A stretch of 64,000 nt of DNA from Minisyncoccia bacterium (lineage in GTDB: Bacteria > Patescibacteriota > Minisyncoccia > Phycocordibacterales > UBA918), in the NCBI GenBank assembly GCA_046293175.1, contig JBKBPM010000002.1, positions 158,428-222,427 on the forward strand, given 5' to 3'. This document shows positions 41,045-56,973 of the stretch, one piece after another (within the stretch, counting starts at the first letter, position 1; each line of letters begins with the position of its first letter). Below the pieces are notes generated by a model that saw nothing but the letters and a program-made list of their open reading frames with translations, was not told the DNA's origin and did no database searches. The translations under genes were made by a program, and so were the position numbers.

Positions 41045-41521
41045 AGATAAAGATTGTTGTGGCGAGATACAACCCGCAAAACAGCCAAAGCGCGTGACAG
41101 CATAGTCACGTGCTTTTGCTTTCTCTCGCCAAAGTCATAAATCAGTATTCCAATACGTACTGTCCACCAGTTATCCACATTTGGTGGGGTGTGGTGGCGA
41201 ATATAACTATATTTTTCAATCCTATTTCCGAAAAGACTGGTCTTTTTACAAGAAAGCAAAACCACTCTATGATAGAGGTACCGCACGAGTTCTCCAATCG
41301 TGCGTGTCGGAGGTATAGACACGCCACGTGCACGCCAATTTCATGACGTGAACCATGGCCAGCATGTTCTGGTGTGTCTTTATTTCCCTCATTCTTTCCC
41401 AGACCCAATCGGCACGTAGGACACTAGAGTTAGTCGCTTGAGTACTATACGCACCACCACAGATTGTGTTTGGATGAGAAACCAATTATTACCACTGTCG
41501 CCTAACTGTTCTTGTTGTGAT

Positions 41522-42835
41522 ATGGAAATTAAGCAGATAAAAAAGCGTGACGGTTCAATCAAGCCTTTTGATATTGCAAAGATTGAGCACGCCATTCTGA
41601 GGGCTCTCATGGAGACCAATGCCGGTGGAGAAGCAGATGCCAAAAAAGTTGCAACGCTCGTCCATCAAAAAGTAGTATCAATGTGTGTCCAAGCCGGCAC
41701 GGCTGAAGCTGGTGATCCAAAGGCGCAGAAATGTGTTGATGGATACCCAACCGTCGAAGAAATCCAAGACCTGGTTGAGGCGTCACTCATGGAGCTTAAC
41801 TATTTTGATACCGCCAAGGCGTACATCATTTATCGTAATGAGCGGAAGAAGATGCGTGAGCGAGATATTTTCCGCAAACGCCAGCACCTCAAGCCCTACG
41901 AGTACCCAGAACTGTACGAGTATGTTGATGCTATCCGCCACTCCTACTGGGTACACACTGAATTCAACTTTACCGGTGACGTGCAGCACTTCCACGTGAA
42001 CGTCAACGATGCTGAACGAAACGCTATCAAGAACACAATGCTTGCTATCGCGCAGATTGAAGTCGCGGTGAAAAGCTTTTGGGGGGACATATACAAGAAG
42101 ATGCCAAAGCCAGAGATTGGGGCGGTGGGGTCTACTTTTGCGGAATCTGAGATTCGTCACACTGATGCCTATTCACACCTGCTTGAAATTCTTGGTCTCA
42201 ATAATGAGTTTGCCAAGATCAAAGATATTCCTGTGATTAAGCAGCGTATGGACTACCTTGATAAGGTAGCTGAACTCTCACGTACGCAGGAGAACCGTGA
42301 GTACGCACACGCGATCATGCTCTTCTCACTTTTTATAGAACATGTGTCATTGTTCTCACAGTTCCTCATCATGATGTCATTTAACAAGCACAAGAACTTG
42401 TTTAAAGGTATCAGTAATGCGGTCGAGGCAACCAGTAAAGAAGAGAACCTTCACGGCCTCTTTGGTATTGATGTGATCAACATCATTAAAGAAGAACACC
42501 CAGAATGGTTTGATAAGGCGATGCAAGAAGCAATCTTAAAGGCATGTGAAGAAGCGTACGAAGCTGAAAGTCGCGTGGTGGACTGGATTTTCGAAGCGGG
42601 AGAACTCGACTTTTTGCCGTCACAGAACGTGAAGGAATTTATCAAGAATCGTCTCAATAACTCACTTGCGGCTATTGGTATGCCTCGCCACTTTGAAGTA
42701 AGTGAAGCTCTCCTTGAGGAAACTGATTGGTTTGATAATGAAGTCATTGCGACCAAACACGTCGACTTCTTCGATAAGCGTTCAATCAACTACAACAAAC
42801 GCGCTGCCAGTGTCACCAGTGAAGATTTATTCTAG
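41522..42835 (+). CDS. nrdB: Class I ribonucleotide reductase small (beta/R2) subunit with N-terminal ATP-cone domain
   Basis: Start at MEIKQIKKRDGSIKPFDIAKIEHAI (ATP-cone pattern K.RDG....F...KI); remainder is a ferritin-like R2 fold with the metal-ligand E..H pair (AESEIRHTDAYS); the N-terminal 28 codons of the ORF-track call are discarded. Confidence 0.75.
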   Translation: MEIKQIKKRDGSIKPFDIAKIEHAILRALMETNAGGEADAKKVATLVHQKVVSMCVQAGTAEAGDPKAQKCVDGYPTVEEIQDLVEASLMELNYFDTAKAYIIYRNERKKMRERDIFRKRQHLKPYEYPELYEYVDAIRHSYWVHTEFNFTGDVQHFHVNVNDAERNAIKNTMLAIAQIEVAVKSFWGDIYKKMPKPEIGAVGSTFAESEIRHTDAYSHLLEILGLNNEFAKIKDIPVIKQRMDYLDKVAELSRTQENREYAHAIMLFSLFIEHVSLFSQFLIMMSFNKHKNLFKGISNAVEATSKEENLHGLFGIDVINIIKEEHPEWFDKAMQEAILKACEEAYEAESRVVDWIFEAGELDFLPSQNVKEFIKNRLNNSLAAIGMPRHFEVSEALLEETDWFDNEVIATKHVDFFDKRSINYNKRAASVTSEDLF

Positions 42836-42856
42836 TAATGCTGTATTTCTGTCCAT

Positions 42857-44551
42857 ATGTCTATTAACTACCAAGAGCCGTGGTACTGGGTAAATGAAAA
42901 TACCCGAGCCTTCATGTCCCGGGGGTACCTCGTTGACGGTCAGACGACCGAAGAACGAGTTCGTTACATTGGCGAGTACGCCGAAAAAGTATTAAATAAA
43001 CCAGGCTTTGCGAAGAAGTTTGAGGATTATATGAGTCGTGGCTGGATTTCGCTCGCCACACCAGTATGGGCCAACTTTGGTCTTAAGCGTGGTCTACCAA
43101 TCAGTTGTTTTGGCTCGTTTGTGGCAGATGATATGGCGAACATTCTCCATACGCAGGCCGAAGTTGGGATGATGAGTAAGTACGGTGGGGGATGCTCTGC
43201 TTATTTTGGTGATCTTCGTCCACGTGGTAGCGAAATTACCCAGAATGGACACTCATCTGGTCCAGTCCACTTCATGCAGCTGTTTGAAAAGATTCTTGAT
43301 GTGGTGAGTCAAGGAGCAACTCGTCGTGGTGTTTTTGCTGCCTACCTGCCGGTTGAACATCCCGATATTCTTGAGTTTCTCGATATTGGCACCGAAGGGA
43401 ATCCGATTCAAAAAATCAACCATGCAGTGACGGTAACTAATAAGTGGATGGAAGAGATGGTGGCGGGCGATGCTGATAAGCGTGCAATTTGGGCGAAGGT
43501 GATACAGCGCCGCGGTGAAATCGGCTACCCGTACATTATCTTCATTGATAATGCGAACGAAGGGAAGCCAGACGTCTACAAGGACAAGAATCTCCCGATT
43601 TATGCAAGTAATGTCTGTAGTGAGATTATGCTCCCGAGTAACCGTGATTGGTCATTTGTGTGTTGTCTCTCGTCTATTAACATCATGCATTATGATGACT
43701 GGAAGGATACTGATCTCGTCGAAACGATGACCTACTTCCTTGACGCGGTGATGAGTGAGTTTATCTCGAAGCTCGAAGTCATGCGTGATCACGAGGATAA
43801 GGACAAGCGTCTAGCCTTCCGTTTTATGGAACGACCATACAACTTTGCGGTGGCGAACCGTGCGCTGGGACTTGGGGTGCTGGGGTACCACTCATACTTA
43901 CAGTCAAAAGGTCTGCCGTTTGAAAGTGAAGAAGCTAGACGTATCAACAAAGAGATTTTTGCCTTGATGCAAGAGCGGTCACTGAAGGCTTCAGCTGAAA
44001 TGGCTAAAGAGTACGGTGAACCAGAAATCCTTAAGGGTTATGGCCGCCGCCACACAACCACCATGGCGATTGCCCCGACTACCTCATCAGCCTTTATTCT
44101 TGGTCAGGTGTCACAGGGGATTGAACCAATCTGGTCCAACTGCTACATTAAGGACGTGGCGAAGCTCAAGGTGGTTATTAAGAACCCAACACTTGAAACC
44201 TTGCTTGATGAGAAAGGGAAGAACACCAAAGAAGTCTGGGACAGTATTCGTGACAACGATGGTTCGGTGCAACACCTTGATTTTCTCTCTGATGATGAAA
44301 AGGCGGTATTCCGCACCTTTGCCGAGATTGATCAGAGCAAGCTCATTATGCACGCTGGTGAACGGCAAAAGTTTATTGACCAAGGGCAATCACTCAATGT
44401 GATGGTGGCGCCTGATACGCCAGTAAAGGAAATCAACCAGCTCTACCTCCAGGCCTGGAAGCAGGGTTGCAAGGCACTCTACTACCAACACAGTATGAAC
44501 GCCGCACAGCAGTTGACTCGCAAGAAGATTCAGGAACGAGCGCAGAAGTGA
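42857..44551 (+). CDS. nrdA: Ribonucleotide reductase large (alpha) subunit, short form lacking N-terminal ATP-cone
   Basis: 564 aa; conserved catalytic core motifs (CFG...NLC..I pattern: ISCFGSFV, SNVCSEI); paired with ATP-cone NrdB upstream. Confidence 0.85.
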   Translation: MSINYQEPWYWVNENTRAFMSRGYLVDGQTTEERVRYIGEYAEKVLNKPGFAKKFEDYMSRGWISLATPVWANFGLKRGLPISCFGSFVADDMANILHTQAEVGMMSKYGGGCSAYFGDLRPRGSEITQNGHSSGPVHFMQLFEKILDVVSQGATRRGVFAAYLPVEHPDILEFLDIGTEGNPIQKINHAVTVTNKWMEEMVAGDADKRAIWAKVIQRRGEIGYPYIIFIDNANEGKPDVYKDKNLPIYASNVCSEIMLPSNRDWSFVCCLSSINIMHYDDWKDTDLVETMTYFLDAVMSEFISKLEVMRDHEDKDKRLAFRFMERPYNFAVANRALGLGVLGYHSYLQSKGLPFESEEARRINKEIFALMQERSLKASAEMAKEYGEPEILKGYGRRHTTTMAIAPTTSSAFILGQVSQGIEPIWSNCYIKDVAKLKVVIKNPTLETLLDEKGKNTKEVWDSIRDNDGSVQHLDFLSDDEKAVFRTFAEIDQSKLIMHAGERQKFIDQGQSLNVMVAPDTPVKEINQLYLQAWKQGCKALYYQHSMNAAQQLTRKKIQERAQK

Positions 44552-50061: not shown

Positions 50062-50490
50062 ATGTTAGAAGTGTACGTTGGTGCTGCTCTTACCGGAGCT
50101 CCGCCTGAATTCGTCAATAACTTCCTGCCGGCACTTAAGGCAGGAATTCGCCAGATGGATATCCATGTGTTCGACTTCATCGGTCTGGAGGGAGAAACGG
50201 CACTCAAGGTCTATATTCATGACCGGAACTGCACCGAGCTGGCCGATGTCTGTGTTTTTTTGGTTGGTGAACCATCGACTGGCCTCGGCATGGAAATCAT
50301 GCTGCGGGAGGGGACAGGGAAACCTGCTCTGTTCTTTGCACAGGAGAACGCTCGTGTGACCCGCATGCTTCTCGGTTTTCTCGAGGTGCGCGGGCAGAAA
50401 CTCCACCGCTACAACACTGCCGAAGACATTTGTCATGTGCTGCGGGAGCATGTCCTCGCTCGGGATCCGAACTACTGGTCGCGCGGCTAG
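50062..50490 (+). CDS. Nucleoside 2-deoxyribosyltransferase-like / Rcl(DNPH1)-like protein
   Basis: Start at ATG preceded by AGGAGA SD (inside ORF 49951..50490); N-terminal VYVGAALTG..F and C-terminal ADVCVFLVGEPSTGLGMEIMLREGTGKPAL match the NDT-family A-D/G/E-x-GT-x-E-x-G-x-A-x-GKP signature. Confidence 0.6.
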   Translation: MLEVYVGAALTGAPPEFVNNFLPALKAGIRQMDIHVFDFIGLEGETALKVYIHDRNCTELADVCVFLVGEPSTGLGMEIMLREGTGKPALFFAQENARVTRMLLGFLEVRGQKLHRYNTAEDICHVLREHVLARDPNYWSRG

Positions 50491-50507
50491 GGGCAGAGCT
50501 GAATCAA

Positions 50508-50540
50508 AGAAAGGGCGCGGGAGACTGCGCCTTTTTCTTA
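50508..50540 (+). terminator. Intrinsic terminator GGCGCGGGAGACTGCGCCTTTTTCTT
   Basis: GC hairpin plus T-run after NDT-like gene. Confidence 0.5.
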
Positions 50541-50570
50541 TCTCATATCACTGCTATACTACTAACCAAT

Positions 50571-51674
50571 ATGGAATTGTCGCGACAGGGAGCCTTGCCC
50601 GCCCAACAGCTACAACAGCTTATGGACAGTGGTTTTATAAAAGGAGCAGACACCACTCATGTGTCACCAGCTTCACTTGATCTCACCGTCAGTGATGAGG
50701 TGTATGAAATTGAAGGGCTCCTCTTACCAAAAAGTGGGGAGACCATTAAGAGTCTCTTGCCACTTATGGATGCAAGGCGTATTGATTATAGTAATCCCTG
50801 TCGAGCGAAGAAACTTTACCTCGCTCGCCTCAATGAATCCCTCGAGCTTCCATCTGCTATCTATGGGTACTGCAATCCGAAATCATCAACCGGAAGACTT
50901 GATGTCCATGTACGGGTGCTCGCTGATGGGGTACCACGCTTTGATTCAGTGACTCCAAAGGGTTTTGTAGGTGAGTTATGGGTGGCGATTATCCCGCAGT
51001 CTTTTTCTGTCCAACTTCATGTGGGAACGCCGCTGACCCAGCTCCGCCTTTTTACCGCTGATACCCGCTTTTCAGAACTTGATTTAGAAATTGCCATGAA
51101 AGAAGGTTTGGTCTATAGTCGTGAATCTGGTGAAAAACTTTCGTATAGTGAATTGGTAACTAACGATCAAGATGGGGCAGTGGTACTCACCGCTTTAGTC
51201 GAAGAAGGGCTTTGTGGCTATGAGTGTATAGCGATCCCTGACCAAATTATTGACGTGGCACAAGTGGGTGGCTATGAAGCAGCCGAGTTTTTTAAACCGC
51301 TAACCATTGACCGCGGGGCACTGCGTCTTAAGCGCGACCGCTTTTACATACTCTCGGGTGCTGAAGCCGTACGGATTCCACCAGGATTAGCCTCTGAGAT
51401 GGTGCCAATGGATGAACGCAGTGGTGATTTTCGCTCCCACTATGCCGGTTTCCTTGACCCTGGATGGGGCTACGGACAGGACGGTGCTGGGAAGGGGCGC
51501 CCGTTTACGCTTGAGGTCCGACCGTTTGAGGATTTAGTAGTGAGACCAGGTCAACCAATCGCGAAGATTCGTTTTGAGCGAATGGCTGAGGTGCCCACCT
51601 TTCATTACGACACAAAACAATCAAACTACCTCATCCAGTTTGGTCCAAAACTTGGAAAGCAATTTAAGAGCTAA
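50571..51674 (+). CDS. Tandem dUTPase-fold dCTP deaminase-like protein (PF06559 'DCD'-like)
   Basis: Start at MELSRQG.. (upstream 47 codons overlap previous gene and terminator); both halves resemble Dcd (KSSTGRLDVHVRV ~ GRSSLARLGLMVHV; FLDPGWGYG...FTLEVRPFEDLVVRPGQPIAKIRFERM ~ IDPGWSG..IVLEFYN...LRPGMLIGALSFE). Confidence 0.65.
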   Translation: MELSRQGALPAQQLQQLMDSGFIKGADTTHVSPASLDLTVSDEVYEIEGLLLPKSGETIKSLLPLMDARRIDYSNPCRAKKLYLARLNESLELPSAIYGYCNPKSSTGRLDVHVRVLADGVPRFDSVTPKGFVGELWVAIIPQSFSVQLHVGTPLTQLRLFTADTRFSELDLEIAMKEGLVYSRESGEKLSYSELVTNDQDGAVVLTALVEEGLCGYECIAIPDQIIDVAQVGGYEAAEFFKPLTIDRGALRLKRDRFYILSGAEAVRIPPGLASEMVPMDERSGDFRSHYAGFLDPGWGYGQDGAGKGRPFTLEVRPFEDLVVRPGQPIAKIRFERMAEVPTFHYDTKQSNYLIQFGPKLGKQFKS

Positions 51675-51678
51675 ACAA

Positions 51679-51708
51679 AAACCCCGCGACAATGTCGCGG
51701 GTTTTTTT
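51679..51708. terminator. Bidirectional terminator AAAAACCCCGCGACAATGTCGCGGGTTTTTTTG between convergent DCD-like and thyX-like genes
   Basis: Perfect GC hairpin with A5/T7 flanks. Confidence 0.6.
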
Positions 51709-51714
51709 GTTTAG

Positions 51715-53076
51715 CTAGTCCTTTTTTACGATATCGTGCTCACCACGTTTGATATTGAAGCGCCCTGGTTCAGGGTCAAGATGGAGTATAAGGCCACTGT
51801 CACCATAAGCATCTTCAAGCATGTGGGCCATCTCAGCCGCTCTTGCGGCGAGGGTGGGGTGGACGACACTCGTAGCCCGGAGTTCAACGAGATACACCAG
51901 AGCCGGTAGGTCACCGGTGAGGTAATTACTGATGTTGTTGCCCATGGCGTGGTAGTACTGAGCGATATACGCATCATTGGTCAAGGCTTCAATAGCAGCT
52001 TTTTGATTAGCAATAAGCGCTTCTGCTTCGCTGCGCAGGGTTGGGGTGAGTTCATCAAGATACCACTCATGGAAACCGATTTCAGTGGTGAGGAGTGGCA
52101 TGCGCTGTGTCACTGCGCGGTGGCGCTGGATGTCACGGAAGGAACCAAAGTCGAGCGTAAAAGCAAAAGCTACTTCACCAGTTGTACCGAGCCACTTTGG
52201 CAACTCAGTTTTGGCCGGGCGGTTTTTAAGCAGAGACTCGTACGGAATCAGTTCAGTGCGATCAATGCCATCACGCACCAGAGCGAGAGATGGAGTTTCT
52301 GGATCGTGATAGTAATAGTGTGCCATGGTCTCGGCCACATATGCCTCCGTTGCTTCATAGCGCTTCTTTTCGCGACTAAATGAGTTGGGATAGGCAGCAA
52401 TCATGCCGTCTTCGAGCTTCTGCGCAATATCACGTACTTCTGGCAGTGGATGGTGGCGGAGAATAACAATCCGATCTGCAAATTGACGAAGGGTACCACT
52501 CCACGCGAGGTTCGTTGAAGCACCAGCCGGGAGGAAGCCACGACAGATATCAAAAGCTCTAGCGGCAATAGCCTTATCGTATACGGCTTCCTTCTCACCG
52601 TCGCCAAGTGGGTACCGCTCTTTGAGAGCGTCTTTCATCTCGGCGACAGCTTTGAGATAAAAGGCCCGCCAGTTTTCGAGAATGCTTGTACCGGCGTCTG
52701 AAGCAATTGGGTTAATAAACGGTTGATGAGCAAAATCTATATAACGAGTTGATGCCTCCTGGCCGTTGTAGAGCTTGTAGTCCTGAATCGCTTTAGCGGC
52801 GAGCATTGATACTCCTTCAATAAAAACGACCGCAAAACCGCAGTCACCAATTGATTTATGGCCGTAGCCGACATAGTACGTCGACATGAATTTGTCTGCG
52901 CCTTTTTCGGCAAGTACAGTGAGGTGTTCAGCGACACCACCAACCGAGCGAGAGTGGAGCGCTTGGAGCATTGCGAGCGCTTCAGCGGTGAGAGTGGCGC
53001 CTGGATCAATAATAACAATATGACCACCGTCTTTAAGTAATTCTTTTTGATGATTAAGGGATTCAATTGATTGCAT
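51715..53076 (-). CDS. thyX: Flavin-dependent thymidylate synthase ThyX-like, tandem-fused (two ThyX folds in one 453-aa chain)
   Basis: First half aligns to ThyX core but has QDYK in place of RHR while keeping Q.S.RY-like QEASTRY; second half has RHR (DIQRHRAVTQRMP) but lacks the S..S.RY segment; both halves retain the C-terminal R..LP / R.L..F pattern. Confidence 0.7.
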   Translation of the reverse strand: MQSIESLNHQKELLKDGGHIVIIDPGATLTAEALAMLQALHSRSVGGVAEHLTVLAEKGADKFMSTYYVGYGHKSIGDCGFAVVFIEGVSMLAAKAIQDYKLYNGQEASTRYIDFAHQPFINPIASDAGTSILENWRAFYLKAVAEMKDALKERYPLGDGEKEAVYDKAIAARAFDICRGFLPAGASTNLAWSGTLRQFADRIVILRHHPLPEVRDIAQKLEDGMIAAYPNSFSREKKRYEATEAYVAETMAHYYYHDPETPSLALVRDGIDRTELIPYESLLKNRPAKTELPKWLGTTGEVAFAFTLDFGSFRDIQRHRAVTQRMPLLTTEIGFHEWYLDELTPTLRSEAEALIANQKAAIEALTNDAYIAQYYHAMGNNISNYLTGDLPALVYLVELRATSVVHPTLAARAAEMAHMLEDAYGDSGLILHLDPEPGRFNIKRGEHDIVKKD

Positions 53077-53230: not shown

Positions 53231-53926
53231 ATGCCTGGAACTTTAATTGTCCTTGATGGTGCTGATGGCGCTGGCAAGGCTACTCAAACTCGTTTACTCG
53301 TTGATCGCTTAAATGCTGAAGGGTATGTCGTTCATACTCTCGATTTCCCGCAATACACCCAGAATCATTTTGGTCGTCTCCTCCGTGAATGTCTCGATGG
53401 TAAGCGCGGTGATTTTATTGGCCTTGATGCCCGGTTGGCCTCAACGATTTTTGCTGCCGACCGTTTTGAATCAGCGCCGATTATTCGAGAATGGCTTGAA
53501 AGTGGGGCAGTGGTAATTCTCGACCGGTATGTGAGCTCAAATATGCTGCATCAAGGTGCCAAGATTTATGATGCCGAAGAACTATCAAACTTTTTAACCT
53601 GGCTTGATCATATGGAACATGGTGTCTTTGGCATTCCTCGTCCCGACACTATCGTGTATCTTGATGTGCCATTTGATGTTCGAAAAAAGCTCAAAGCTGA
53701 AGCGGTGGCAGCTGGAAAACATGGGGTAGAAGTAAAACTCGATCAAGCCGAAGCTAACGACCAGCATCAGCAAGATGCTGAGGAGAATGCTAAACGTTTA
53801 GTGGCGCTTCATAATGAATGGCGGACGGTAGTTTGTGTAGATGGTGATACACTTTTATCTCGTGAAGCTATCCATGAGCAAGTCTACGAAACCGTAAAGC
53901 CAATCTTGCCGCCACGTTACGAGTAG
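53231..53926 (+). CDS. tmk: Thymidylate kinase-like P-loop kinase (paralog 1)
   Basis: 231 aa; P-loop IVLDGADGAGKATQ, DRY motif (LDRYVSSNMLHQG), Tmk length. Confidence 0.7.
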   Translation: MPGTLIVLDGADGAGKATQTRLLVDRLNAEGYVVHTLDFPQYTQNHFGRLLRECLDGKRGDFIGLDARLASTIFAADRFESAPIIREWLESGAVVILDRYVSSNMLHQGAKIYDAEELSNFLTWLDHMEHGVFGIPRPDTIVYLDVPFDVRKKLKAEAVAAGKHGVEVKLDQAEANDQHQQDAEENAKRLVALHNEWRTVVCVDGDTLLSREAIHEQVYETVKPILPPRYE

Positions 53927-53929
53927 GGT

Positions 53930-54352
53930 ATGGAACTCAAAGTCAAAAAGCTACACCCCGATGCCAAGCTACCGAGCTATGCGCACGCGAGTGATGCGGG
54001 GATGGATTTGTATACGGTTGAGTATTTTGTTATCGAACCAGGAGCGCATGTGATTGCAAAGACCGGTATCGCCCTTGTTATACCAGATGGGTATGCCGCC
54101 CTTGTATGGGACAAAGGTGGTATTGCGAACAAACGTCACCTCAAAACCGTGGGCGGCGTGTTTGATACTGATTATCGGGGGGAGTATCTCATCGGCCTCT
54201 ACAATTTTGGGACGGAAGCACAGGCTTTTAAGGCAGGTGATAAGATTGCGCAGCTCATTATACAACGAGTTGAACACCCGACTCTCATTGAGGTGACTGA
54301 ACTCGATGCAACACCCCGTGGGGAAGGCCGATTTGGTAGTACTGGAGAGTAG
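53930..54352 (+). CDS. dut: dUTP diphosphatase (dUTPase)
   Basis: 140 aa; all five dUTPase motifs (ASDAGMDLY, KTGIAL, GVFDTDYRGE, RGEGRFGSTG). Confidence 0.9.
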   Translation: MELKVKKLHPDAKLPSYAHASDAGMDLYTVEYFVIEPGAHVIAKTGIALVIPDGYAALVWDKGGIANKRHLKTVGGVFDTDYRGEYLIGLYNFGTEAQAFKAGDKIAQLIIQRVEHPTLIEVTELDATPRGEGRFGSTGE

Positions 54353-54361
54353 CGTACAATA

Positions 54362-55051
54362 ATGAAAACATTTATGGAAAAAGCAAAATTGATTGTCGTA
54401 GACGGTGGGGCAAATATTGGTAAGGCGACACAAGCCGACATGCTCATGAACCGGCTCATGAATGAAGGGTATACGGTTGGGAAGATGGATTTCCCGCGCT
54501 ACAACCAAAACACTATTGGCCACTTCATCAATGAGTTTATTGATAGTGATAGTCCATCTTTGGCGACCTTGCCACCCAAGTGTTTTGCGATTCTCTTTGC
54601 GGCTGACCGTTTTGAATCAAAAAAGCAGATTGAAGAATGGATAGCCGAAGGACGGGTGATTATCTTTGACCGGTACGTCAGCGCCTCGATGCTGCACCAG
54701 GGGAGTAAGATTACCGATATCGATGCGCGGGAGGAGTTCCTTCGTTGGGTAGAGCACGTGGAGTATGAAATATTTGGTATGCCGCGCCCCGACCTCACGG
54801 TCTATCTTGATGTACCACCAAATGAGAGTGATAAGCTTCTCGGTTATGTAGAAGAGCTTGGGGTGAAAGTCATAAACGATGAAAGTAAGGCAAAGATCGA
54901 CCAAGCCAAAGTTTCTGATTGCGCAAAGTACCTTGCTGCTATTAATCACAACTGGGTGACGGTACCGTGTATGGCTGATGGTAACCTCCGCAACCGTGAT
55001 GATATTCACGAAGAAGTGTATCAGGCGGTCAAAAGTAAGGTGTTGATTTAA
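54362..55051 (+). CDS. Thymidylate kinase-like P-loop kinase (paralog 2, divergent P-loop)
   Basis: 229 aa; IVVDGGANIGKATQ, FDRYVSASMLHQG; clear paralog of 53231..53926. Confidence 0.6.
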   Translation: MKTFMEKAKLIVVDGGANIGKATQADMLMNRLMNEGYTVGKMDFPRYNQNTIGHFINEFIDSDSPSLATLPPKCFAILFAADRFESKKQIEEWIAEGRVIIFDRYVSASMLHQGSKITDIDAREEFLRWVEHVEYEIFGMPRPDLTVYLDVPPNESDKLLGYVEELGVKVINDESKAKIDQAKVSDCAKYLAAINHNWVTVPCMADGNLRNRDDIHEEVYQAVKSKVLI

Positions 55052-55172: not shown

Positions 55173-55544
55173 CTAGTACATGGCGGTGCGAGCCCGGTTT
55201 ACTATCTCCTTTACATCATGACTTGCTTTTACGATGTAGTCTTCTGGCTTGAGTGATACCGCCTCATAGACATTTTCTGGAGCGCTGTAGTTTGTAAGGT
55301 AGATGACCTTGGCGGTTCGTCCCCAAGCATCTTCACGGATTTTTTTCATCGCTTCATATCCATCCATATTTGGCATATCAATATCCATGAGAATGAGTGA
55401 CGGGTGATATTCAAGCGCAAGAGCAATCGCCTCAGTATTGTCTTTGGCGATTAACACATTGATACCGGCCTCACTAAACGCAAAGCGGTACATTTCGCTC
55501 AGTACCATATCATCATCAACGAGTAAAATAGTTTTTTGGTCCAT
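55173..55544 (-). CDS. Stand-alone response-regulator receiver domain (CheY-like)
   Basis: 123 aa; LLVDDD...LILMDIDMPNMDG...K motif set of receiver domains; no output domain. Confidence 0.8.
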   Translation of the reverse strand: MDQKTILLVDDDMVLSEMYRFAFSEAGINVLIAKDNTEAIALALEYHPSLILMDIDMPNMDGYEAMKKIREDAWGRTAKVIYLTNYSAPENVYEAVSLKPEDYIVKASHDVKEIVNRARTAMY

Positions 55545-55704
55545 ATTGACAGTATATCACCTGCGTAGGCTAGTGGGTAGCAAATCGTTTTCTTTAGCTT
55601 CACTGCCAAAAATCTTGTATACTACAGCTACTAAATATCCGCCCTATGATCTAAGTACCTGCGACATTGATGAGAGGAATTATCTAAAGCTAATTTACTA
55701 TCGT

Positions 55705-56973
55705 ATGGAACACTATTCATTCATCAAAGCGCAGGATCCAGAATTGTATACCGCTCTTGTTGGCGAAGAGGCCCGCGAAGCGCGCGGGGTAGAGCTTATC
55801 CCAAGTGAGAACTACGTCTCACGAGCGGTACTTGAGGCCAATGGTTCTGTGTTTACCAATAAGTACTCTGAGGGGTATCCCGGCAAGCGGTACTACGGCG
55901 GACAAGAGTATACTGATATTGCGGAGACGCTCGCTATCGAGCGGGCCAAAGAACTTTTTAAGGCCAAATATGCTAATGTGCAGCCACTTGGGGGTGCAGC
56001 AGCGAACGTCGCGATGTACTTTGCTTTGATGGAGCCAGGTGATACCGTCCTTGGTATGGATCTCAGTCATGGGGGACACCTCACCCATGGACATCCCACT
56101 ACTGCCATAAACAAAGTCTTCAACTTTGTCCGCTATAAGATGAAAGATGTTGAGACGGGAGAAATCGATTACGAGGAATTACGTCGTGTCGCCCTCGAAT
56201 ATAAACCAAGGGTTATCCTGGCTGGCTTCTCTGCGTATAGTCGTGAGCTTGATTATCAAAAGTTTGTTGATATCGCCAAAGAAGTTGGTGCGTACACCGT
56301 CGCAGATATGGCTCATATTGCTGGACTGATTGCCGGTGGGGTAGCGAAGAATCCGTTTGACTTCGGTTTTGATGTGATTACCACCACTACCCACAAGACA
56401 CTTCGTGGTCCACGTGGGGGAATGATTCTTGTTCGTGATGATGAAGAGATTGCGAAGAAAATCAATAAGGCAGTTTTCCCCGGTATGCAAGGTGGTCCAC
56501 ATATGCACATTATTGCAGCGAAGGCGGTCGCTTTTGGAGAGGCGCTCACACCAGCCTTTAAGGTCTATGCGGCCCAGATTCTCAAAAATGCCAAAGCAAT
56601 GGAAGCGGTCTTTAAGGCTGAAGGTGTACGTCTGCTCTGTGGCGGAACAGATAACCATCTCCTCGTGGCTGATGTCTTTGGAAGTCTTGGGGTCACTGGT
56701 CAGGAGGCCGAGACGGTGCTTGATGAGGTCGGTATCACCCTTAATAAGAATATGATTGCCGACGATACTCGTACGGCGATGGATCCGTCTGGTATTCGCT
56801 TTGGTACCCCAGCGATGACTACTCGAGGCATGAAAGAAGGGGAAGCGACCAAGCTCGCCGAAATCATGATTACTGCCATGCGCGCGAAGTCCGATGCTAG
56901 GAAGAAAGCCGAACTCCAGAAAGAGGTGCAAGCGCTTTGTGAGGCGTTCCCCGTCCCAGAGAAAATGGTTTAA
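55705..56973 (+). CDS. glyA: Serine hydroxymethyltransferase
   Basis: Start at MEHYSFIK (inside ORF 55438..56973; upstream part overlaps the receiver gene on the other strand); PLP-lysine motif TTTTHKTLRGPRGG. Confidence 0.9.
   Translation: MEHYSFIKAQDPELYTALVGEEAREARGVELIPSENYVSRAVLEANGSVFTNKYSEGYPGKRYYGGQEYTDIAETLAIERAKELFKAKYANVQPLGGAAANVAMYFALMEPGDTVLGMDLSHGGHLTHGHPTTAINKVFNFVRYKMKDVETGEIDYEELRRVALEYKPRVILAGFSAYSRELDYQKFVDIAKEVGAYTVADMAHIAGLIAGGVAKNPFDFGFDVITTTTHKTLRGPRGGMILVRDDEEIAKKINKAVFPGMQGGPHMHIIAAKAVAFGEALTPAFKVYAAQILKNAKAMEAVFKAEGVRLLCGGTDNHLLVADVFGSLGVTGQEAETVLDEVGITLNKNMIADDTRTAMDPSGIRFGTPAMTTRGMKEGEATKLAEIMITAMRAKSDARKKAELQKEVQALCEAFPVPEKMV

What the first reader, a model, noticed from the sequence alone, without database searches (positions are those of the whole stretch)
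51715..53076. Tandem-fused ThyX with complementary motif loss between halves
The N-terminal ThyX fold has lost the RHR triad (QDYK instead) but keeps the Q.S.RY-like substrate-binding segment (QEASTRY). The C-terminal fold keeps RHR but has lost S..S.RY. In homotetrameric ThyX each active site is built from several subunits, so a fused pseudo-heterodimer with complementary halves would assemble half the number of complete sites, or sites with altered specificity such as a different pyrimidine substrate or one-carbon chemistry.
Basis: inference. Interest (0 to 1): 0.6.

Follow-up and report, generated by a model that had tools for sequence, protein, structure and literature searches.

The report
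Long two-domain ThyX thymidylate synthase
This gene encodes a double-length flavin-dependent thymidylate synthase whose two halves each keep only part of the catalytic residues, so a pair of chains should build two working sites instead of four; it is real, but it is the standard enzyme form in this group of tiny bacteria and belongs to an already annotated 'long ThyX' class.

Summary

The N half has D99-Y100-K101 where canonical ThyX has RHR, but keeps Q106-EASTRY-112, R179 and S75. The C half keeps R318-H319-R320 and R400 and has lost the S-x-R-Y loop.

This split holds across more than 370 diverse relatives. The family has over 4,000 90%-identity clusters, hits in 580+ species genomes (the best 80 all Patescibacteria), and a second clade that NCBI labels Alphaproteobacteria MAGs. 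The same split occurs in distant long ThyX proteins of Euzebya, Parabacteroides, a cyanophage and jumbo vibriophages.

Mapped onto the published three-subunit active site, the retained residues complement each other. A dimer of this chain should therefore form a pseudo-tetramer with two complete FAD/dUMP sites. This is inferred, not shown.

The gene lies among dcd, dut, two tmk, glyA and ribonucleotide reductase genes, which argues for ordinary dTMP synthesis rather than new chemistry.

A duplicated ThyX was noted in 2009 as uncharacterised, and no such structure is solved. I file this as a new, divergent member of a known kind, of moderate interest.

The parts
51715..53076 (-). Whole ORF, 453 aa plus stop: long (two-domain) ThyX / flavin-dependent thymidylate synthase
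52369..53076 (-). N half (residues 1-236): ThyX fold lacking RHR, carrying the dUMP-loop residues
   Evidence: Pfam Thy1 E 3.5e-13 on this half alone. hhalign to T. maritima ThyX E 1.2e-4. Alignment to Mtb ThyX.
51718..52368 (-). C half (residues 237-453): divergent ThyX fold carrying RHR and the R174/R199-type arginine
52774..52782 (-). D99-Y100-K101, the position of the canonical RHR triad (lost)
   Evidence: Translation. Alignment to Mtb R95-H96-R97. Family consensus is D-x-P, with D in 111/134.
52741..52761 (-). Q106-E-A-S109-T-R111-Y112: retained substrate loop (Tm N85-E86-L-S88-G-R90-Y91)
   Evidence: S109 and R111 134/134, Y112 130/134, E107 131/134.
52852..52860 (-). H73-K74-S75 of the invariant YGHKSIGDCG motif; S75 aligns with Mtb Ser71 (FAD phosphate contact from a neighbouring subunit)
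   Evidence: S75 134/134, H73 130/134. Role from PMC6514825.
52540..52542 (-). R179 of the R-G-F-L-P motif (Tm R147 / Mtb R172 equivalent), kept only in the N half
   Evidence: 128/134. The C-half equivalent is Q373/Y374.
52486..52488 (-). R197 (Mtb Arg190 / Tm R165 equivalent), kept in the N half of this subfamily
   Evidence: 108/134; 118/120; 120/120. The C-half equivalent is P391.
52117..52125 (-). R318-H319-R320: the only RHR triad of the protein, within the invariant FRD-x-QRHR motif
   Evidence: R318 and R320 134/134, H319 121/134. In-register hhalign to Tm R78-H79-R80.
51877..51879 (-). R400 of E-L-R (Tm R174 / Mtb R199 equivalent), invariant only in the C half
   Evidence: 134/134; 120/120. 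The N-half equivalents 205-207 vary between lineages.
51745..51747 (-). R444 in the C-terminal tail K-R-G-x-x-D-I: invariant, with no canonical ThyX counterpart; role unexplained
   Evidence: 134/134 and 120/120. The tail has low confidence in the monomer model.
51683..51701 (.). GC-rich hairpin with T-runs on both strands: bidirectional terminator-like site between the convergent dcd and thyX genes
50430..51674 (+). Neighbour: two-domain dCTP deaminase (DCD_N + DCD_C); the real start is probably near residue 49 of this ORF
   Evidence: Pfam and NCBIfam.
53231..55051 (+). Neighbours: tmk (53231-53926), dut (53930-54352) and a second tmk (54362-55051), divergent from thyX
   Evidence: Pfam. The tmk paralogues are 43% identical.
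55438..56973 (+). Neighbour: serine hydroxymethyltransferase (regenerates CH2-H4folate)
   Evidence: Pfam SHMT E 7e-154.

Best explanation
This is the organism's flavin-dependent thymidylate synthase (dUMP + CH2-H4folate + NAD(P)H -> dTMP). It takes the 'long' form, in which two ThyX domains are fused in one chain and have specialised. The C half supplies the RHR triad (R318-H319-R320) and R400. In canonical ThyX these residues belong to the subunit that holds the FAD phosphates and flavin and polarises the uracil. The N half supplies the S109-T-R111-Y112 loop, E107 and R179, which in canonical ThyX come from a different subunit and clamp and cover dUMP. In this subfamily the N half also supplies S75 and R197, which in canonical ThyX reach the FAD from a third subunit. 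Two chains would therefore assemble into a pseudo-tetramer (2 N + 2 C domains) resembling the canonical 222 homotetramer, but with two complete active sites and two degenerate ones. Shown here: the two ThyX folds, the complementary and family-wide conservation pattern, and the thymidylate-pathway gene context. Inferred: the dimeric assembly, the number of sites, which N domain (own or partner chain) serves which role, and catalytic activity itself.

For: Residue roles: review PMC6514825 assigns RHR plus Arg199 to subunit A, Ser71 plus Arg190 to subunit B, and Ser105/Arg107/Tyr108 to subunit C of one Mtb ThyX site.

Mapping: for the N half versus Mtb; for both halves versus Tm.

Conservation: A-role residues are invariant or nearly so in the C half and absent from the N half. 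C-role residues are invariant or nearly so in the N half and absent from the C half.

Generality: the same split is seen in Euzebya, Parabacteroides, Ma-LMM01 and BONAISHI long ThyX. The alignment to the P. distasonis protein is collinear over both halves, E 3e-17.

Context: dcd, tmk, dut, tmk, glyA and RNR genes in the window. In 80 related loci, tmk occurs in 40-43, dut in 34, glyA in 29 and dcd in 13. No thyA or short thyX is found in the 64-kb window. A decayed thyA remnant lies directly downstream of the tandem thyX in a Dojkabacteria MAG.

Precedent: the title of Leduc et al. [quoted passage not shown]
Against: There is no experimental or multimer-model evidence for the assembly; only monomer AF2 models were available. 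The protein scores 24 bits against the thyX equivalog TIGR02170, whose cut-off is 87.9. The third-subunit (B-role) assignment is not robust across long forms. In Euzebya and Parabacteroides the Arg190 equivalent is Arg in the C half and Gln in the N half, the opposite of this subfamily. Several invariant residues have no assigned role in this model: K95, Q98, D99 at the 'dead' positions, and W338, Y339, H406, R444. I could not scan a whole genome of this lineage for a second thymidylate synthase. The assignment of R147 (Tm) to the dUMP-loop subunit is from memory, not from a source read here.
Confidence: 0.72

Rival explanations
1. The complementary split goes with a changed reaction: a different pyrimidine nucleotide (UMP, dCMP) or different one-carbon chemistry, as in PolB-type UMP/dUMP methylases.
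Against: PolB scores no better than genuine ThyX enzymes in the same searches. All mapped dUMP contacts (S109, R111, Y112, E107, R179, R318, R400) are conserved. The conserved neighbours make dUMP (dcd, dut), consume dTMP (tmk) and supply CH2-H4folate (glyA). No other thymidylate synthase is seen in the window. A thyA remnant lies beside the gene in one relative.
Confidence: 0.07
2. All four sites are still used. The apparently degenerate pair is rebuilt from non-canonical residues (K95, Q98, D99, W338, Y339, R444 tail) and binds FAD/dUMP, or a second ligand such as NAD(P)H or a regulator, in a new way.
For: K95 is 132/134, Q98 116/134, D99 111/134, Y339 and R444 134/134, and none has an assigned role. 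D99 and R197 co-occur in 91/134 sequences.
Against: No arginine-rich phosphate clamp is present at the N-half RHR position. The C half lacks any S-x-R-Y-like loop and R147/R165 equivalents. More canonical-looking long forms (Euzebya, Parabacteroides) have different residues at 99-101 and 197, so no shared alternative site is evident.
Confidence: 0.12
3. The protein is a catalytically dead ThyX relic or a purely regulatory or structural paralogue.
For: Neither half has a complete ThyX motif on its own. It scores below the equivalog cut-off.
Against: Active-site residues are strongly and precisely conserved across thousands of sequences and several clades. It is annotated as the thymidylate synthase in these genomes. 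It is clustered with thymidylate-pathway genes.
Confidence: 0.03

Closest known systems
Canonical short ThyX / FDTS (T. maritima TM0449, PDB 1O26/5CHP; M. tuberculosis 2AF6; Pfam PF02511, TIGR02170)
   Different: Short ThyX is a ~220-250 aa chain with RHR-x7-S-x-R-Y in one segment, forming a homotetramer with four identical three-subunit sites. Here the motif is split between two fused, highly diverged domains (N versus C profile E 0.013, 18% identity). At most two canonical sites per two chains are possible. The protein scores 24 against a cut-off of 87.9 bits on TIGR02170.
Long (duplicated, Thy1-Thy1) ThyX of other bacteria and phages: Parabacteroides distasonis WP_009276148.1 (539 aa), Euzebya pacifica WP_164711104.1 (516 aa), Microcystis phage Ma-LMM01 gp020 (491 aa), Vibrio phage BONAISHI ORF269 (480 aa); 'ThyX with a domain duplication' of Chloroflexi (Valas & Bourne 2009, PMC3224940)
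   Same: Two ThyX domains in one chain, with one STRY in the N half and one RHR in the C half. The YSRS, G-[HD]-x-S, R-x-x-L-P, F/Y-RD-x-QRHR, Q-Y and E-L-R...H motifs are shared. Homology is collinear over both halves. All are annotated FAD-dependent thymidylate synthase.
   Different: Only 22-33% identical. Pfam recognises both halves in the Euzebya and Parabacteroides proteins but only the N half here. The Arg190-type residue sits in the N half here and in the C half there. This subfamily is shorter (about 450 aa) and has its own C-terminal K-R-G-x-x-D-I tail. Whether the Chloroflexi proteins mentioned in 2009, or the roughly 529-aa chlamydial ThyX (length and biochemical characterisation recalled from memory), have the same split was not checked here.
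Engineered or mixed ThyX heterotetramers (Leduc et al. 2004, PNAS 101:7252; title seen, content from memory)
   Same: The principle that a ThyX site is assembled from residues of different subunits, so that chains defective in different residues can complement one another.
   Different: That was a laboratory demonstration with point mutants of a homotetramer. Here the complementation is fixed by evolution in one fused chain. The paper could not be read here.
tRNase Z long form (tRNase ZL), an analogy only
   Same: A tandem duplication of a homodimeric enzyme followed by divergence of the halves (abstract of PMC2942849).
   Different: Unrelated fold and chemistry.

Membership tests
ThyX / flavin-dependent thymidylate synthase (PF02511, TIGR02170) | ThyX fold | tested here: met
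ThyX / flavin-dependent thymidylate synthase (PF02511, TIGR02170) | Contiguous ThyX motif RHR-x7-S(-x-R-Y) within one domain | tested here: not met
   The N half has DYK...STRY. The C half has RHR followed by AVTQRMPLL. The motif exists only split across the two domains.
ThyX / flavin-dependent thymidylate synthase (PF02511, TIGR02170) | Score above the curated equivalog cut-off | tested here: not met
   TIGR02170 gives 24 bits against a cut-off of 87.9. The Pfam gathering score is met (51.7 against 24.8).
ThyX / flavin-dependent thymidylate synthase (PF02511, TIGR02170) | Full complement of FAD and dUMP contact residues (Mtb R95/H96/R97, R199, S71, R190, S105, R107, Y108) | tested here: met
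   Present collectively: R318/H319/R320 and R400 in the C half; S75, R197, S109, R111 and Y112 in the N half. All are conserved.
ThyX / flavin-dependent thymidylate synthase (PF02511, TIGR02170) | Homotetramer with four active sites; bound FAD; dTMP synthase activity | not testable with these tools
   Only monomer AF2 was available. The prediction from residue mapping is a dimer with two sites.
ThyX / flavin-dependent thymidylate synthase (PF02511, TIGR02170) | Thymidylate-pathway genomic context | tested here: met
   dcd, tmk, dut, tmk, glyA and RNR genes in the window. Recurs in 80 related loci.
Long, duplicated ThyX (Thy1-Thy1 architecture) | Two ThyX domains in one polypeptide | tested here: met
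Long, duplicated ThyX (Thy1-Thy1 architecture) | Collinear homology over both halves to named long ThyX proteins, with the same one-STRY / one-RHR distribution | tested here: met
   BLASTP to P. distasonis, E 3e-17, query residues 36-420. tblastn to BONAISHI, 96% coverage, E 4e-54. Motif table.
Long, duplicated ThyX (Thy1-Thy1 architecture) | Both halves recognised by Pfam Thy1 | tested here: not met
   Two stretches in Euzebya and P. distasonis, but only one here. The C half of this subfamily has diverged beyond the Pfam model.
PolB-type UMP/dUMP C5-methylase (PDB 4P5A) | Closer to PolB than to genuine ThyX; nucleoside-antibiotic gene context | tested here: not met

The most novel reading that the evidence does not exclude
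The two 'degenerate' pockets of the pseudo-tetramer are not dead space. They may have been repurposed, for example as a dedicated NAD(P)H or folate entry site or as an allosteric nucleotide site. They would be built from the subfamily-invariant residues K95, Q98, D99, W338, Y339 and the C-terminal R444 tail. That would make the long form a functionally asymmetric ThyX rather than a half-active one. In addition, the long form could be a shared derived character linking Patescibacteria with Chloroflexi-like lineages.
Probability: 0.12. Interest if true: 0.55.

Novelty: new member of a known kind. Interest (0 to 1): 0.35.

Why it matters
ThyX is an antibiotic target and a textbook case of an active site shared by three subunits. 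The long form is a natural, evolution-fixed version of inter-subunit complementation. A structure of it would show which subunit contacts are truly needed for catalysis. It would also show whether halving the sites buys asymmetry, regulation or stability. It appears to be the usual thymidylate synthase of the very large Patescibacteria radiation: 580+ species genomes have a hit, and the best 80 are all Patescibacteria. Relatives occur in jumbo phages. Yet the C half escapes Pfam and the protein fails the NCBI equivalog cut-off, so automated metabolic reconstructions may treat it inconsistently. None of this changes what the enzyme most probably does.

Tried and rejected
- An N-versus-C profile comparison on 121 close homologues found no similarity. 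With 134 diverse representatives it was only E 0.013. The tandem-fold claim therefore had to rest on structure prediction.
- Pfam on the C half alone at E<=10 gave nothing.
- phmmer of the single protein against PDB gave only E 0.12. The family profile gave E about 1e-6, for the N half only.
- The AFDB Foldseek library was not available, so I could not list UniProt proteins with the same two-domain fold.
- Leduc 2004 (PMC409905) and Liu & Yang 2004 (PMC515151, 'distinctive ThyX motifs') are not held.
- Nine literature searches found no paper describing the complementary split. The only mention of a duplicated ThyX was Valas & Bourne 2009. Stern et al. 2010 does not mention duplication.
- The listing of cluster members gave no taxonomy for ten divergent representatives.
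- I could not retrieve a chlamydial or Chloroflexi ThyX sequence to test whether they share the split.
- I tested whether Arg at position 197 (N half) and Arg at 391 (C half) are mutually exclusive across the family. They are not. Conservation alone therefore cannot fix which domain plays the third-subunit role.
- A promoter scan of the thyX-tmk intergenic region was no better than shuffles.

Full report
**Numbering.** Residues are numbered from Met1 of the ORF. Alignments A1 and A2 and the full-length AF2 model were built from a reference that omitted Met1, so their printed numbers are one lower.

**1. What is there.**
- Window 51715-53076 is one minus-strand ORF of 453 aa.
- Pfam Thy1 matches residues 56-230 only (E 1.2e-13).
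- The NCBI thyX equivalog TIGR02170 scores 24 bits against a cut-off of 87.9.
- Translating the exact codons gives D99-Y100-K101, Q106-EASTRY-112 and R318-H319-R320.
- A hmmsearch of the family profile against PDB aligns the N half to M. tuberculosis ThyX residue by residue. In that alignment S75 pairs with Ser71, D99/Y100/K101 with R95/H96/R97, E107 with Q103, S109/R111/Y112 with S105/R107/Y108, R179 with R172, and R197 with R190.

**2. Is the C half a ThyX fold?**
- Sequence methods barely see it. There is no Pfam hit at E<=10, and a shallow N-versus-C profile comparison finds nothing.
- With 134 diverse representatives, hhalign of the T. maritima ThyX sequence against the C-half profile gives E 1.6e-4 over 171 columns, in register. 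The register is FRDIQRHR under ARQWFRHR, AQYY..MG under VARIVLP, and ELRATSVVHPTL under NLRADSHAQWEI.
- The full-length model (pLDDT 83, pTM 0.81) shows the ThyX succession of strands and helices twice.
- The tandem fusion is established.

**3. How general is the pattern?**
- The protein has 4237 hits among 90%-identity clusters.
- It has 702 representatives at 50% identity with E<=1e-30, almost all full-length at 430-500 aa.
- In one-genome-per-species contigs, 580 or more loci encode a relative. The best 80 are all Patescibacteria lineages: Kaiser-, Pacei-, Moranii-, Uhr-, Dojka-, Magasanik-, Komeili-, Nomura- and Yonathbacteria.
- A more distant clade is labelled Alphaproteobacteria MAGs by NCBI and named FAD-dependent thymidylate synthase.
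- Conservation in 134 diverse representatives and in 120 members of the second clade:

| Half | Residue | Representatives (of 134) | Second clade (of 120) |
|---|---|---|---|
| N | S42 | 133 | 120 |
| N | R43, S75, S109, R111 | 134 | 120 |
| N | Y112 | 130 | 119 |
| N | E107 | 131 | 120 |
| N | R179 | 128 | 120 |
| N | R197 | 108 | 118 |
| C | R314, D315, R318, R320, R400, H406, R444 | 134 | 120 |
| C | H319 | 121 | 120 |

- The RHR position of the N half is D-x-P.
- N-half positions 205-207, which correspond to the R174/R199-type arginine, vary by lineage.
- The C half has no S-x-R-Y. It has Q373/Y374 in place of the R147-type arginine and mostly Pro at 391 in place of the R165/R190-type arginine.

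**4. Mechanistic reading.**
- The review PMC6514825 describes one M. tuberculosis ThyX site as built from three subunits:
  - A: R95-H96-R97, binding the FAD phosphates, ribityl and flavin, plus Arg199 on dUMP.
  - B: Ser71 and Arg190, on the FAD phosphates.
  - C: Arg87, the Gln103 backbone, Ser105, Arg107 and the Tyr108 lid, on dUMP.
- In this family the A-role residues survive only in the C half. The C-role residues survive only in the N half.
- In this subfamily the B-role residues also survive only in the N half.
- In a 222 tetramer, if the A position is a C domain and the B and C positions are the two N domains, two of the four symmetry-related sites are complete and two lack RHR. A homodimer of the fused chain can realise exactly this.
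- It remains an inference. I had no multimer prediction and no access to model coordinates.
- The B-role assignment is not secure. In the long ThyX of Euzebya and Parabacteroides the Arg190 equivalent is Arg in the C half (NAR...ELR) and Gln in the N half. There is no either/or pattern between positions 197 and 391 across the family.
- Under the alternative geometry, in which the two C domains form the FAD-sharing A/B pair, the count is again two complete sites.

**5. Function.**
- The window holds, around the gene:
  - an ATP-cone-bearing RNR small subunit and an RNR large subunit (41438-44551);
  - a two-domain dCTP deaminase (50430-51674);
  - tmk (53231-53926), dut (53930-54352) and a second tmk (54362-55051);
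  - SHMT (55438-56973).
- Together these are the steps that make dUMP, use dTMP and regenerate CH2-H4folate.
- In the 80 related loci, tmk lies within the ±8 kb flanks in 40-43, dut in 34, glyA in 29 and dcd in 13.
- tblastn with E. coli ThyA and T. maritima ThyX finds no other thymidylate synthase in the window.
- In a Dojkabacteria MAG, a 92-aa C-terminal remnant of thyA (DTHIYLNH...) lies immediately downstream of the tandem thyX. This looks like displacement of ThyA by this enzyme.
- I see no support for a changed substrate or changed chemistry.

**6. Relation to what is known.**
- Long ThyX proteins exist in named organisms and phages:
  - Euzebya pacifica, 516 aa;
  - Parabacteroides distasonis, 539 aa;
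  - Miltoncostaea oceani;
  - Microcystis phages Ma-LMM01 and MaMV-DC;
  - a Tunturiibacter jumbo phage;
  - jumbo vibriophages BONAISHI and vB_VmeM-Yong, which are 32% identical to the query over 94-96% of its length.
- Each of the four I translated has exactly one STRY, in the N half, and one RHR, in the C half. They share the other family motifs.
- The P. distasonis protein aligns collinearly with the query over both halves (E 3e-17).
- Pfam recognises two Thy1 stretches in the Euzebya and Parabacteroides proteins. The tandem architecture is therefore already catalogued, and PGAP names these proteins FAD-dependent thymidylate synthase.
- Valas & Bourne 2009 (PMC3224940) wrote that the Chloroflexi ThyX 'contains a domain duplication' and 'has not been characterized'.
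- No long ThyX is in the PDB.
- In the held literature I found no explicit description of the complementary residue split. The likeliest sources, Liu & Yang 2004 and Leduc et al. 2004, could not be read.
- From memory only: chlamydial ThyX is about 529 aa and was shown to be an active FDTS. I could not check whether it has the same split.

**7. Verdict.**
- The 'two complete sites per dimer' interpretation is well supported by residue mapping but unproven.
- The 'new specificity' alternative is unlikely.
- The gene is a divergent, Patescibacteria-typical member of the already annotated long-ThyX class.
- It is worth a structural study, but it is not a new kind of system.

Noticed in passing
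window 41438-42835 (+) and 42857-44551 (+): The ribonucleotide reductase small (radical-generating) subunit ORF carries an N-terminal ATP-cone (Pfam E 9e-21). The 564-aa large subunit shows no ATP-cone. This is an unusual placement of the allosteric domain.
   Followed up: no
window 50430-51674 (+): The adjacent dCTP deaminase is the two-domain DCD_N + DCD_C long form (PRK07559-like, 248.7 bits against a cut-off of 283). It is a second internally duplicated nucleotide-metabolism enzyme, right next to the duplicated ThyX. The TTG-initiated ORF probably over-extends by about 48 codons.
   Followed up: partly
window 53231-53926 and 54362-55051 (+): Two thymidylate kinase paralogues, 43% identical, flank dut. 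Only 2 of 80 related loci show two distinct tmk genes near thyX.
   Followed up: partly
L036 9351-9629 (Candidatus Dojkabacteria MAG JAYRWD010000044.1): A 92-aa ORF is a C-terminal remnant of ThyA, 43% identical to E. coli ThyA residues 205-264 and containing DTHIYLNH. It lies directly downstream of the tandem thyX and is apparently a decayed thyA beside its replacement.
   Followed up: partly
L083 1465-2907 (Vibrio phage BONAISHI ORF269); also vB_VmeM-Yong phages, Tunturiibacter phage Tunturi_5, Microcystis phages Ma-LMM01/MaMV-DC: Jumbo phages and cyanophages encode full-length long ThyX proteins with the same one-STRY / one-RHR split. The vibriophage ones resemble the Patescibacteria type (AAKAIQD..., FHEWY, KRG tail).
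   Followed up: partly
window 51683-51701: An 8-bp GC-rich hairpin with T-runs on both strands lies between the convergent dcd and thyX genes. It looks like a bidirectional intrinsic terminator.
   Followed up: no
window 51745-51747 (R444) and 52060-52065 (W338-Y339): These residues are invariant or nearly so in this subfamily (R444 and Y339 134/134, W338 130/134). They have no counterpart in short ThyX and no assigned role. R444 sits in a C-terminal tail that is disordered in the monomer model.
   Followed up: no
window 52840-52902 (residues 59-79, KGADKFMSTYYVGYGHKSIGDC): The most conserved motif of the N half is the lowest-confidence segment of the full-length monomer model (pLDDT <50). That would fit a segment that orders only in the oligomer or with FAD bound.
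   Followed up: no
window 55438-56973 (+): The SHMT ORF has about 96 residues upstream of the Pfam match. This is probably an over-long TTG-initiated ORF rather than a real extension.
   Followed up: no
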